From positions 1 to 4,976 of IMG/VR virus record IMGVR_UViG_2681813267_000006: a DNA stretch of 4,976 bases; one strand, given 5' to 3'. The notes under the pieces were generated by a model. The model was not told the DNA's origin and made no database searches. It saw only the letters and a list, made by a program, of their open reading frames with translations. Positions 903-1,251 of the stretch are shown in pieces. Origin of the DNA: a virus. Taxonomy: Duplodnaviria; Heunggongvirae; Uroviricota; Caudoviricetes. The position numbers and the translations under genes are program-made. Position 1 is the first letter of the stretch. Each line of letters begins with the position of its first letter.

Positions 903-977
903 TGGAGCGGGCAGCGGGAATCGAACCCGCATCATCAGCTTGGAAGGCTGAGGTAATAGCCATTATACGATGCCCGC
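903..977 (-). tRNA. tRNA-Gly (anticodon UCC), glyT-like
   Basis: Reverse complement GCGGGCATCGTATAATGGCTATTACCTCAGCCTTCCAAGCTGATGATGCGGGTTCGATTCCCGCTGCCCGCTCCA folds as a cloverleaf (anticodon loop CTTCCAA, T-loop TTCGATT, encoded CCA). It matches E. coli tRNA-Gly2 as I remember it. Confidence 0.9.
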
Positions 978-980
978 ATA

Positions 981-1056
981 TGGTGCCGACTACCGGAATC
1001 GAACTGGTGACCTACTGATTACAAGTCAGTTGCTCTGCCTGCTGAGCTAAGTCGGC
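981..1056 (-). tRNA. tRNA-Thr (anticodon UGU), thrU-like
   Basis: Reverse complement GCCGACTTAGCTCAGCAGGCAGAGCAACTGACTTGTAATCAGTAGGTCACCAGTTCGATTCCGGTAGTCGGCACCA; 7-bp acceptor stem, U8, anticodon loop CTTGTAA, encoded CCA. Confidence 0.88.
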
Positions 1057-1058
1057 GC

Positions 1059-1135
1059 TGGCCCACCACCGAGGACTCGAACCTCGCACCGTCAACTTAG
1101 AAGGTTGATGCTCTATCCGGATGAGCTAGTGGTGG
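1059..1135 (-). tRNA. tRNA-Arg (anticodon UCU), phage-type
   Basis: Reverse complement CCACCACTAGCTCATCCGGATAGAGCATCAACCTTCTAAGTTGACGGTGCGAGGTTCGAGTCCTCGGTGGTGGGCCA; fully paired acceptor stem beginning with an unusual C1:G72, U8, A14, A20 and C35 (Arg identity elements), anticodon loop CTTCTAA, T-loop TTCGAGT, discriminator G73, encoded CCA. Confidence 0.8.
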
Positions 1136-1136
1136 T

Positions 1137-1213
1137 TGGTGGCCCTTGCTGGACTTGAACCAGCGACCTGGCGATTATGAGTCGCTCGCTCTGACCAACT
1201 GAGCTAAAGGGCC
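1137..1213 (-). tRNA. tRNA with CAU anticodon: Ile2 (lysidine, ileX/ileZ-like) or elongator Met
   Basis: Reverse complement GGCCCTTTAGCTCAGTTGGTCAGAGCGAGCGACTCATAATCGCCAGGTCGCTGGTTCAAGTCCAGCAAGGGCCACCA; the anticodon arm (GCGACTCATAATCGC) resembles E. coli ileX-type tRNA-Ile2 as remembered. Ile versus Met cannot be decided from sequence alone. Confidence 0.85.
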
Positions 1214-1222
1214 GGAGGCAGA

Positions 1223-1251
1223 ATAATAACCATATGTCATCACATCTGCAA
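1223..1251 (-). promoter_or_regulatory. Candidate promoter for the tRNA array
   Basis: Minus strand reads TTGCAG (plus 1246-1251), 17-bp spacer, TATTAT (plus 1223-1228, 5/6 to consensus), then 9 nt to the 5' end of the first tRNA. Confidence 0.35.

What the first reader, a model, noticed from the sequence alone, without database searches (positions are those of the whole stretch)
903..1251. Tightly packed four-tRNA array reading A-ending rare codons (AUA, AGA, ACA, GGA)
Four tRNAs are separated by only 1-3 nt, each with an encoded CCA and a shared promoter-like element upstream. The Gly-UCC and Thr-UGU members look like copies of host glyT/thrU. The Arg-UCU member is divergent and begins with an unusual C1:G72 pair. 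The CAU member resembles lysidine-type tRNA-Ile2. Stx-type phages are known to carry an ileZ-argN-argO array at this position; this array has a different composition and is not followed by a toxin operon. It is not the chromosomal thrU-tyrU-glyT-thrT-tufB operon, because there is no tRNA-Tyr, the spacing differs and no tufB follows.
Basis: partly seen in the sequence, partly recalled or inferred. Interest (0 to 1): 0.5.

Follow-up and report, generated by a model that had tools for sequence, protein, structure and literature searches.

The report
Prophage four-tRNA operon for rare codons
This is an ordinary but intact four-tRNA mini-operon (Ile-CAU, Arg-UCU, Thr-UGU, Gly-UCC) that lambdoid prophages of E. 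coli and Shigella carry just after their late-gene regulator Q; it supplies the tRNAs for the codons the prophage over-uses, and versions of it sit in about one in nine complete E. coli genomes.

Summary
Window 903-1213 (minus strand) holds four intact tRNA genes: Ile2-type CAU, Arg-UCU, Thr-UGU and Gly-UCC. Spacers are 1, 2 and 3 nt and every CCA is encoded. ARAGORN, Rfam (56-70 bits) and RefSeq annotation of a 100% identical locus all call them.

Gly equals K-12 glyT (75/75). Thr is thrU with two D-loop changes. The CAU tRNA is 92% ileY and 96% Stx-phage ileZ. The Arg tRNA has the argN-type body (C1:G72) but anticodon UCU instead of UCG.

A sigma-70-like promoter (TTGCAG-17-TATTAT) ends 9 nt before the first tRNA. 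It is conserved across otherwise diverged relatives. It is separate from the Q-dependent late promoter in a Stx2 phage. Terminator-like hairpins lie between the array and the holin gene.

The four cognate codons rank 2, 3, 5 and 6 of 61 for enrichment in a near-identical prophage versus host genes.

Four-slot arrays occur in 603 of 5,426 complete E. coli genomes. This exact composition occurs in 22 of 120 sampled viral contigs and twice in one Shigella flexneri genome.

Verdict: a routine codon-supplementing phage tRNA operon, a new member of a known kind, of low interest. The side observation worth keeping is that slot 2 switches anticodon between relatives.

The parts
1403..1957 (-). Q-like late antiterminator gene (context; the array lies directly downstream)
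   Evidence: Pfam DUF1133 E=2e-107 plus Phage_antitermQ E=8e-7. PHROG 753 'anti-termination protein Q-like' E=9e-80. Weak match to the phage 21 Q structure 6P18, E=4e-4.
1301..1331 (-). Intrinsic-terminator-like hairpin (13-bp stem, 5-nt loop, then a U-run); putative tR' of the late promoter region
   Evidence: RNA fold of 1402..1214: GAAAGAGCCCGC-UUUAU-GCGGGUUUUUUU. The whole interval has a z-score of -4.2. Its distance from the TTGACG hexamer at the Q stop codon resembles the pR'-tR' geometry in Stx2 phage L006. The simple terminator scan missed it.
1223..1251 (-). Dedicated sigma-70-type promoter of the tRNA operon: -35 TTGCAG (1251..1246), 17-nt spacer, -10 TATTAT (1228..1223), then the 9-nt stretch TCTGCCTCC (6 of 9 G/C) before tRNA nucleotide 1
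   Evidence: Found by the promoter scan. Among 35 distinct upstream 60-mers from related arrays, TATTAT sits at -15..-10 in 27 and TTGCA at -38..-34 in 26, although the spacers differ. The same element lies in Stx2 phage L006 at 2980..3008, about 250 nt downstream of its phi21-type pR'.
1137..1213 (-). tRNA-Ile2 type (anticodon CAU; predicted to read AUA after lysidine modification)
   Evidence: 71/77 to K-12 ileY, 74/77 to Stx ileZ, 54/78 to metT, with C4:G69 and C5:G68.
1059..1135 (-). tRNA-Arg(UCU) on the argN-type scaffold (C1:G72, A20, G73); reads AGA and probably AGG
   Evidence: 64/77 to Stx argN, 58/79 to argU, 46/77 to argO. The cloverleaf is supported by covariation over 18 alleles.
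981..1056 (-). tRNA-Thr(UGU), a copy of host thrU with two D-loop T-to-C changes; reads ACA
   Evidence: 74/76 to thrU. The same allele is in 20 of the sampled IMG/VR contigs.
903..977 (-). tRNA-Gly(UCC), identical to host glyT; reads GGA/GGG
   Evidence: 75/75 to K-12 glyT.
625..644 (-). Terminator-like hairpin plus T-run downstream of the array
   Evidence: 5 terminator-like sites found in 200-1500 against 1.2 expected from shuffles.
263..289 (-). Strong terminator-like hairpin (10-bp stem, T-run) just upstream of the holin start
90..222 (-). 5' part of the class II holin gene, the first late gene after the array, cut off by an insertion sequence at about position 89
   Evidence: The window aligns to the intact prophage L001 only from 90 to 4976. 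The holin is annotated in L001.

Best explanation
The locus is a self-contained tRNA operon carried by a lambdoid prophage. Its order on the minus strand is: Q-like antiterminator gene, putative late promoter region with a terminator hairpin, then the operon's own sigma-70 promoter. Then come four tRNA genes packed 1-3 nt apart, terminator-like hairpins, and the lysis genes. The primary transcript would be cut into single tRNAs by RNase P at each 5' end, and the 1-3-nt trailers trimmed back to the encoded CCA by 3' exonucleases. This is how E. coli processes its own tightly spaced tRNA operons (inferred from established knowledge, not shown here). The products are extra copies of four minor tRNAs. 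They read AUA (Ile2, after lysidine formation by host TilS), AGA/AGG, ACA and GGA/GGG. These are the codons the prophage uses far more than its host. The array therefore raises decoding capacity for phage genes. After induction its output would be amplified by phage DNA replication and by Q-antiterminated read-through. Because it has its own promoter, it may also be active in the lysogen. Shown here: gene identity, intactness, promoter conservation, the codon match and the distribution. Inferred: expression, processing, modification and benefit.
For: Four intact tRNAs with encoded CCA. The isoacceptor assignments rest on identity to host or phage genes. In the 99.4% identical prophage of FDAARGOS_944 (10,520 codons) compared with 41 flanking host genes (13,350 codons), the codons are enriched as follows: ATA 11.0 vs 2.5 per thousand, AGA 7.2 vs 1.4, ACA 13.8 vs 4.5, GGA 14.0 vs 5.4 (Fisher p from 6e-12 to 6e-17). 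These are ranks 3, 2, 5 and 6 of 61 codons. Rank 1 is AGG, which I expect the same Arg tRNA also to read by wobble (my knowledge). By my hand calculation, the chance that four given codons all fall in the top six is 15/521,855, about 3e-5. Other A-ending codons (CTA, TTA, GTA, GCA, CAA, GAA, CCA, AAA) are not enriched, so this is not simple AT-richness. The promoter hexamers and their spacing are conserved over diverged spacers. That promoter is distinct from pR' in a Stx2 phage. Terminators follow the arrays in three contexts. Compensatory changes keep the slot-2 and slot-4 stems paired. A published precedent is phage SfI, whose tRNA-Thr(UGU) lies downstream of Q and whose genome shows an ACA bias (PMC3636060).
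Against: The codon match is a correlation, and rare codons are generally enriched in horizontally acquired DNA. The host sample is small and includes highly expressed TCA-cycle genes, which exaggerates the contrast. Early genes, transcribed before any late read-through, use AGA more than late genes do (11.9 vs 5.0 per thousand). The prophage in this window has its holin gene broken by an IS element, so a benefit to phage production cannot currently be selected here. No expression data were available.
Confidence: 0.65

Rival explanations
1. The array is a counter-defence supply. It replaces or buffers host tRNAs that anti-phage nucleases destroy during infection or induction, rather than compensating for codon usage.
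For: tRNA-Thr(UGU) is a prime target of the PARIS effector AriB, and T5 tRNA variants neutralise PARIS (PMC12409363). The Gifsy-1 nuclease HepS also cleaves Thr tRNAs, including UGU as a secondary target (PMC13043305). In most related arrays slot 2 carries a UUU anticodon, the other prime AriB target. Its anticodon arm reads UAAGUU instead of the UAAUC|A cleavage motif.
Against: In this window all four anticodon loops are identical to the host genes. The Thr copy keeps the exact U36-A-A-U-C-A41 AriB site, and Gly is 100% glyT. The copies would therefore be cut like the host tRNAs, and only dosage could help. I did not find Ile2, Arg(UCU) or Gly(UCC) listed as nuclease targets in the passages I read.
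Confidence: 0.15
2. The array is lysogenic-conversion cargo. Its own promoter expresses the tRNAs in the lysogen, where they help translate AT-rich, rare-codon-rich acquired genes of the bacterium, such as virulence genes of Shigella or pathogenic E. coli. On this view the host benefits rather than the phage.
For: A conserved sigma-70 promoter lies next to the tRNAs and is separate from pR'. Terminators insulate the lysis genes downstream. The tRNAs remain intact in a prophage whose holin is IS-disrupted. Up to three arrays occur in one Shigella flexneri genome, and the sister prophage carries ipaHb.
Against: No expression data exist. The promoter alone does not show activity in the lysogen. 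Decayed copies are frequent in relatives, including truncated slot 2 and a broken slot 4 in L007, which argues against strong host-level selection. This reading overlaps with the best explanation rather than excluding it.
Confidence: 0.12
3. The array is functionless baggage. On this reading it is a relic of illegitimate capture of host thrU/glyT and of an ileZ-argN module, hitch-hiking in a mosaic hot-spot downstream of Q.
For: The Thr-Gly spacer TAT equals the base after host thrU (T) plus the two bases before host glyT (AT). That is what a clean deletion of tyrU and its spacers from the host operon would leave. The region after Q/tR' holds many tRNA remnants in relatives. The prophage here is defective.
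Against: All four cloverleaves and CCA ends are intact. Compensatory stem changes occur among alleles. The promoter is conserved across diverged spacers. The same haplotype recurs in at least 17 independent contigs. The codon match is highly non-random.
Confidence: 0.08

Closest known systems
ileZ-argN-argO tRNA cluster of Stx-converting lambdoid phages (for example Stx2a_F349, AP012530)
   Same: It sits at the same place, downstream of Q and upstream of the next late or moron genes. It has the same promoter (TTGCAA-17-TATTAT ending 9 nt before the first tRNA). Slot 1 is 96% identical to ileZ. Slot 2 has the same C1:G72 scaffold (83% identical) after the same 1-nt spacer. A terminator follows the array.
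   Different: The slot 2 anticodon is UCU here and UCG in argN. argO (UCU, a different body, after a 13-nt spacer) is absent and is replaced by a fused Thr(UGU)-Gly(UCC) pair. No stx operon follows.
Ile(CAU)-'Lys'(UUU)-Thr-Gly arrays of E. coli temperate phages and prophages (PhiR47_1, vB_EcoS-689R5, APEC O1 prophage)
   Same: The four-slot layout and the 1-2-3-nt spacers are identical. The promoter and the Thr and Gly slots are the same. Identity over the array is 92-94%.
   Different: Slot 2 has anticodon loop CCUUUAA (UUU with C33) and an A52-C64 mismatch in the T stem. The window has CUUCUAA (UCU) and a perfect T stem.
Chromosomal thrU-tyrU-glyT-thrT-tufB operon of E. coli
   Same: The Thr and Gly genes are 97% and 100% identical to thrU and glyT.
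   Different: There is no tyrU, thrT or tufB. A 3-nt spacer replaces the 209 nt between thrU and glyT. The promoter and flanks differ, and the context is a prophage.
tRNA-Asn/tRNA-Thr genes downstream of gene Q in SfI, Sf6, ST64T, PS3 and phage 21
   Same: tRNA genes sit at the same position in lambdoid genomes. They include a Thr(UGU) whose cognate ACA codon is over-used by the phage (PMC3636060).
   Different: The composition differs (Asn-Thr), and in some relatives the tRNAs sit directly after tR' without the Ile-type promoter module.

Membership tests
Lambdoid-phage late-region tRNA cluster (Stx-phage ileZ-argN-argO type) | Lies between the Q antiterminator gene and the downstream late or lysis genes, on the same strand | tested here: met
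   Q-like gene 1957..1403, tRNAs 1213..903, holin start 222, all on the minus strand.
Lambdoid-phage late-region tRNA cluster (Stx-phage ileZ-argN-argO type) | The first gene is an ileZ-like CAU tRNA | tested here: met
   74/77 identical to ileZ of Stx2a_F349.
Lambdoid-phage late-region tRNA cluster (Stx-phage ileZ-argN-argO type) | The second gene is argN (C1:G72 scaffold, anticodon UCG), 1 nt after ileZ | tested here: inconclusive
   The scaffold and the 1-nt spacer are met (64/77; C1:G72 is invariant in 18 alleles), but the anticodon is UCU, not UCG.
Lambdoid-phage late-region tRNA cluster (Stx-phage ileZ-argN-argO type) | The third gene is argO, followed by the stx operon | tested here: not met
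   Slots 3 and 4 are Thr(UGU) and Gly(UCC). Identity of the window Arg to argO is 46/77. No toxin genes follow; there is a 680-nt gene-free stretch and then the holin gene.
Lambdoid-phage late-region tRNA cluster (Stx-phage ileZ-argN-argO type) | Dedicated promoter TTGCA-17-TATTAT immediately upstream of the first tRNA (a feature derived here, not from the literature) | tested here: met
   Window 1251..1223 and L006 2980..3008. The element is conserved in 26-27 of 35 distinct upstream sequences.
tRNA-Ile2 (lysidine-dependent AUA reader, ileX/ileY type) | CAU anticodon with the ileX/ileY-type body, including C4:G69 and C5:G68. These acceptor pairs are, to my knowledge, what TilS uses to tell tRNA-Ile2 from tRNA-Met. 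| tested here: met
   92% to ileY, 90% to ileX, 69% to metT/metU. C4:G69 and C5:G68 are present, whereas metT has U4:A69 and A5:U68. PGAP labels the identical gene tRNA-Ile.
tRNA-Ile2 (lysidine-dependent AUA reader, ileX/ileY type) | C34 is actually converted to lysidine and the tRNA is charged with Ile | not testable with these tools
   This needs tRNA mass spectrometry or modification-sensitive sequencing.
tRNA-Arg (ArgRS substrate) | A20, C35, U36 or G36, and a purine at position 73 (identity elements as I recall them from the literature) | tested here: met
   D loop ATCCGGATA carries A20, the anticodon is UCU, and the discriminator is G73. This is a sequence-level check only.
Chromosomal thrU-tyrU-glyT-thrT-tufB operon | tyrU lies between thrU and glyT, with thrT and tufB downstream | tested here: not met
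   The K-12 operon layout compared with the window: Thr, then TAT, then Gly, and no tyrU, thrT or tufB.
Nuclease-resistant phage tRNA variants (T5-type anti-PARIS tRNAs) | [quoted passage not shown] | tested here: not met
   The window Thr anticodon arm ACTGA-CTTGTAA-TCAGT is identical to thrU and keeps UAAUC|A. Gly is identical to glyT (motif from PMC12409363).

The most novel reading that the evidence does not exclude
The array may be one state of a portable, promoter-equipped tRNA cassette in which slot 2 is an evolvable C1:G72 scaffold. The anticodon of that scaffold has been re-written repeatedly: UCG in Stx phages, UCU here, UUU with an unusual C33 in most E. coli prophages, and odd 6-nt or other loops in rarer alleles. 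Slot 3 (the thrU body) has also been switched to UUU in some relatives. If tRNA-targeting defences such as PARIS drive these switches, then lambdoid prophages carry a previously unrecognised, fast-evolving anti-defence tRNA locus. PARIS cuts Lys-UUU and Thr-UGU at UAAUC|A, and the slot-2 UUU allele lacks that motif. The window would then show the AGA-reading allele of this locus.
Probability: 0.2. Interest if true: 0.55.

Novelty: new member of a known kind. Interest (0 to 1): 0.2.

Why it matters
For this window the result matters little. It is useful for annotation: the CAU gene is tRNA-Ile2 rather than tRNA-Met, and slot 2 is an argN-type gene. It also shows that the array has its own conserved promoter and is insulated from the lysis genes, so it may be expressed in lysogens of Shigella and pathogenic E. 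coli. The family-level pattern is the part that could repay experiments, given the recent discovery of tRNA-cleaving phage defences. That pattern comprises four fixed slots, anticodon switching on a fixed scaffold, and a UUU allele without the AriB cleavage motif.

Tried and rejected
- Literature searches for the gene names ileZ, argN and argO, and for prophage tRNA terms, found no paper describing this array.
- The phage 21 late-region paper (PMC207295) and PMC11840918 are not held.
- I looked for the phage 21 Q-binding element (TGAGCA direct repeats) in the Q-to-tRNA interval. It is present in Stx2 phage L006 at 2721 and 2729 but absent from the window. The late promoter of this DUF1133-type Q could therefore not be placed. 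The TTGACG hexamer overlapping the Q stop codon has no convincing -10 partner.
- The simple terminator scan missed the 1301-1331 hairpin. RNA folding found it.
- The 680-nt stretch between tRNA-Gly and the holin gene has no match in the phage collection. Its ORFs have no Pfam or PHROG hits.
- The plus-strand Rfam matches to 'Plastid-ycf2' are antisense tRNA artefacts far below the gathering score.
- The promoter-like site 989..962 inside the Thr/Gly genes is the glyT D-arm sequence TATAAT, and I disregarded it.
- Paralogy between the Arg and Thr slots (recruitment by anticodon change within this array) is rejected, because the two are only 64% identical.
- I considered the 'Thr-Tyr-Gly' hit in the phage collection (H55) as a possible intermediate. 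Its 360-bp span equals the host operon spacing, and the same two-piece pattern is the chromosomal operon in every E. coli genome. It is therefore most likely host DNA, and I did not use it.
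Full report
**1. What is there**

The window is the late-regulatory region of a lambdoid prophage, read on the minus strand. From high to low coordinates it holds the following.
- A QueH gene (4488..3802).
- A hok/sok toxin-antitoxin locus. The hok ORF is at 3631..3419, and sok matches Rfam at 117 bits over 3744..3569.
- A small gene of unknown function (3169..2882).
- DUF1367, YbcO/DUF1364 and a Q-like antiterminator (1957..1403; Pfam DUF1133 E=2e-107; PHROG 'anti-termination protein Q-like' E=9e-80).
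- The four tRNA genes.
- A 680-nt stretch without recognisable genes.
- The start of a class II holin gene at 222.

The window is 99.4% identical over 90-4976 to a prophage of E. coli FDAARGOS_944. That prophage is integrated next to ybhA. It has a lambdoid early region, contractile-tail structural genes, and ipaHb at its far end.

**2. Check of the observation**

ARAGORN finds four tRNA genes on the minus strand: Gly(tcc) 903-977, Thr(tgt) 981-1056, Arg(tct) 1059-1135 and CAT 1137-1213. Rfam's tRNA model matches all four at 56-70 bits against a threshold of 29. RefSeq annotates the identical locus as tRNA-Ile, -Arg, -Thr and -Gly.

A stem-by-stem check gave these results.
- All acceptor stems are 7/7 paired.
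- All four genes end in an encoded CCA.
- The spacers are A, GC and TAT (1, 2 and 3 nt).
- The Arg gene has a C1:G72 first pair.

The only omission is the strand.

Spacing of 2-3 nt is not exceptional in itself. The host's own lys/val tRNA operon has the same spacing.

**3. Identity of each tRNA**
- Gly is 75/75 identical to K-12 glyT.
- Thr is 74/76 identical to thrU. The two differences are T-to-C changes in the D loop. It is only about 70% identical to thrT.
- The CAU tRNA is 71/77 to ileY, 69/77 to ileX, 74/77 to ileZ of a Stx2 phage, and 54/78 to the elongator metT/metU. It has C4:G69 and C5:G68 as in ileX/ileY, where metT has U4:A69 and A5:U68. To my knowledge these two acceptor pairs are what TilS uses to recognise tRNA-Ile2. 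ARAGORN's label 'Met' is only the literal reading of the anticodon.
- Arg is 58/79 to host argU, 46/77 to Stx argO and 64/77 to Stx argN. It shares with argN the unusual CC...GG acceptor end. In argN the anticodon is UCG, and here it is UCU. A20, C35, U36 and G73 are present. I recall these as ArgRS identity elements.

**4. Relatives and how the array is built**

Related prophages keep the same four slots and the same 1-2-3-nt spacers but vary in content.
- Slot 2 can be Arg(UCU), or a scaffold-identical gene with loop CCTTTAA. That loop reads as 'Lys' UUU with C33 in place of the near-universal U33, and PGAP sometimes leaves the gene unannotated.
- Slot 3 can be a thrU body with anticodon TTT.
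- Slot 4 can be a decayed glyT that PGAP calls 'Val'.

Distribution in the collections searched was as follows.
- I scanned IMG/VR for the ileZ-type 3' end followed by CC. Among the first 120 hits, 53 contigs have Ile-'Lys'(UUU)-Thr-Gly. Twenty-two have Ile-Arg(UCU)-Thr-Gly, as in the window. About 20 have Stx-type or decayed versions.
- The window's own alleles of slots 1, 2 and 3 recur in 17, 17 and 20 of the sampled contigs.
- In complete E. coli genomes, a four-slot array covering at least 80% of the query is present in 603 of 5,426. Ten of these match at 99% identity or more.
- Among species-representative genomes, the fused Thr-TAT-Gly junction occurs in E. coli, Shigella flexneri, E. 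albertii, E. ruysiae and Citrobacter braakii. There are three arrays in each of the S. flexneri and E. coli representative genomes, two of them the window's type. The last two species named have Thr-Gly alone.

The array therefore looks like a fusion of an ileZ-argN-type module with a Thr-Gly module.

The spacer TAT equals the base that follows thrU plus the two bases that precede glyT in the host operon. That is what a clean deletion of tyrU would leave. Three bases are weak evidence.

Across 18 slot-2 alleles the cloverleaf is 96.6% paired. Six pairs change on both sides, against 2.3 in shuffles (3 of 500 shuffles reach that number), and C1:G72 is invariant. Slot 4 alleles show a compensated C6:G67 to U6:A67 change. 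The genes are therefore under tRNA-like constraint.

**5. Transcription signals**
- *Terminator before the array.* A 13-bp hairpin followed by a U-run lies at 1331..1301, about 100 nt downstream of a TTGACG hexamer that overlaps the Q stop codon.
- *Promoter.* A promoter-like element lies at 1251..1223 (TTGCAG, 17 nt, TATTAT), followed by the 9-nt stretch TCTGCCTCC (6 of 9 G/C) before tRNA position 1. Among 35 distinct upstream 60-mers from the relatives, TATTAT is at exactly -15..-10 in 27, and a TAnnnT hexamer in 31. TTGCA is at -38..-34 in 26. The spacers between the hexamers differ widely. This conservation pattern is good comparative evidence for a working promoter.
- *Separation from pR'.* In a Stx2 phage the same element (2980..3008) lies about 250 nt downstream of a textbook phi21-type late promoter. 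That promoter has TTGACA plus two TGAGCA Q-binding repeats, as described in PMC6606751, and its own terminator. The tRNA promoter is therefore not pR'.
- *Terminators after the array.* Terminator-like hairpins follow the arrays at window 644..625 and 289..263, at L006 3276-3293 before stxA, and at L008 4556-4571 before the holin gene. This is what one expects if a constitutively active tRNA promoter must be kept from driving toxin or lysis genes. That last point is my inference.

I could not place the late promoter for this DUF1133-type Q.

**6. Function**

I compared codon usage in the near-identical FDAARGOS_944 prophage (50 intact CDS, 10,520 codons) with 41 flanking chromosomal genes (13,350 codons).

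| Codon | Prophage (per thousand) | Host (per thousand) |
|---|---|---|
| ATA | 11.0 | 2.5 |
| AGA | 7.2 | 1.4 |
| ACA | 13.8 | 4.5 |
| GGA | 14.0 | 5.4 |

Each difference has a Fisher p of 6e-12 or lower. Ranked by enrichment, the top six of 61 codons are AGG, AGA, ATA, CGA, ACA and GGA. The four cognate codons take ranks 2, 3, 5 and 6. I expect the Arg tRNA also to read rank 1 by wobble. Four given codons all falling in the top six has a chance of 15/521,855. Other A-ending codons are not enriched.

This is the classical codon-compensation pattern. It matches what was reported for the Thr(UGU) gene downstream of Q in phage SfI (PMC3636060).

The caveats are these.
- The host sample is small and rich in highly expressed genes.
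- The evidence is a correlation.

**7. Rival readings**

[quoted passage not shown] HepS of Gifsy-1 also cuts Thr tRNAs (PMC13043305). That makes an anti-defence role conceivable for the family. The common slot-2 UUU allele reads UAAGUU at that site. In this window, however, the Thr gene keeps the exact host cleavage motif, all four anticodon loops equal the host's, and Gly is identical to glyT. Only extra dosage could help here. I give this reading about 0.15.

*Benefit to the lysogen.* A benefit to the bacterium through the dedicated promoter is compatible with the data and overlaps with the main explanation.

*Pure relic.* This is unlikely, given the intact structures, the covariation, the conserved promoter and the recurrence of the same haplotype.

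**8. Comparison with what is known, and novelty**

tRNA genes just downstream of Q are a known feature of lambdoid phages. Examples are the Stx-phage ileZ-argN-argO cluster and the Asn/Thr genes in SfI, Sf6, ST64T, PS3 and phage 21. The window's array shares position, promoter, slot 1 and the slot-2 scaffold with the Stx cluster. It fails the 'argO plus stx' features.

No record in the phage collection covers 80% or more of the array-plus-upstream query. The closest records are Ile-'Lys'-Thr-Gly phages at about 93%. Even so, the identical array is routinely annotated in RefSeq genomes and is common in proviral contigs. I found no paper that describes it.

I file it as a new member of a known kind, with low interest (0.2). 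The most novel reading not excluded is that the family is a portable cassette whose slot-2 scaffold changes anticodon under pressure from tRNA-targeting defences. I put that at probability about 0.2.

Noticed in passing
window 1-89 (junction at about 89/90); holin ORF 222..28 on the minus strand: The first 89 bases are the end of an IS3-family element (matches IS2- and IS600-annotated ends). It interrupts the class II holin gene. The sister prophage in FDAARGOS_944 has an intact 71-aa holin, so the prophage in this window is lysis-defective.
   Followed up: partly
window 3802-4488 (minus strand): The prophage encodes an epoxyqueuosine reductase QueH (Pfam PF02677, E=2e-65; PHROG 3217), an enzyme of queuosine-tRNA modification. 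It lies about 2.6 kb upstream of the tRNA array, so there is a second translation-related cargo gene in the same prophage region.
   Followed up: no
window 3419-3744 (minus strand): A complete hok/sok-type type I toxin-antitoxin locus lies here. sok matches Rfam RF01794 at 117 bits, and the hokD-like ORF is MKQQKAMLIALIVICLTVIVTALVTRKDLCEVRIRTGQTEVAVFVDYESRK.
   Followed up: no
L008 4115-4191, L010 4100-4179, and 53 of the 120 IMG/VR contigs sampled (for example L014): The commonest slot-2 allele in related arrays keeps the argN-type C1:G72 scaffold. Its anticodon loop is CCUUUAA, that is UUU preceded by C33 instead of the near-universal U33, and it has an A52-C64 mismatch in the T stem. It lacks the UAAUC|A motif cut by PARIS AriB. 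PGAP annotates it as tRNA-Lys or not at all.
   Followed up: partly
L009 4173-4248 and four IMG/VR contigs (L062, L088, L119, L123): Slot 3 is a thrU body with the anticodon changed from UGU to UUU by a single base, plus A26G. This is an apparent Thr-to-Lys anticodon switch.
   Followed up: no
IMG/VR loci L037, L051, L079, L093, L105, L116, L126: Rare slot-2 alleles on the same scaffold carry other anticodon arms. ARAGORN reports Ser(tga), Leu(taa), Arg(ccg) or anticodon loops of irregular length ('???'). They may be decay products or further anticodon swaps.
   Followed up: no
window 223-902: A 680-nt stretch between tRNA-Gly and the holin gene has no annotated gene, no Pfam or PHROG hit for its ORFs, and no match in the phage collection. 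It is 99.4-99.6% conserved (from window 229 onward) in the Shigella flexneri SFBU1023 and E. coli ECMA0423 genomes. It contains two terminator-like hairpins.
   Followed up: partly
L006 about 2792-2815 and L139 5473-5547: Directly after the phi21-type tR', an E. albertii prophage has a tRNA that ARAGORN calls Asn(GUU). The Stx2 phage retains only the 5' half of that gene. The region after tR' therefore accumulates tRNA genes and their remnants.
   Followed up: no
L007 4354-4428 (E. coli CFSAN029787): A second array in this genome has a glyT-derived slot 4 with anticodon TAC and a one-base deletion that breaks the acceptor stem and removes the CCA. PGAP annotates it as tRNA-Val, but it is probably a pseudogene.
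   Followed up: no
L011 5761-7587 (FDAARGOS_944): The sister prophage carries the type III effector gene ipaHb at its right end. The strain labelled E. coli is therefore Shigella- or EIEC-like.
   Followed up: no
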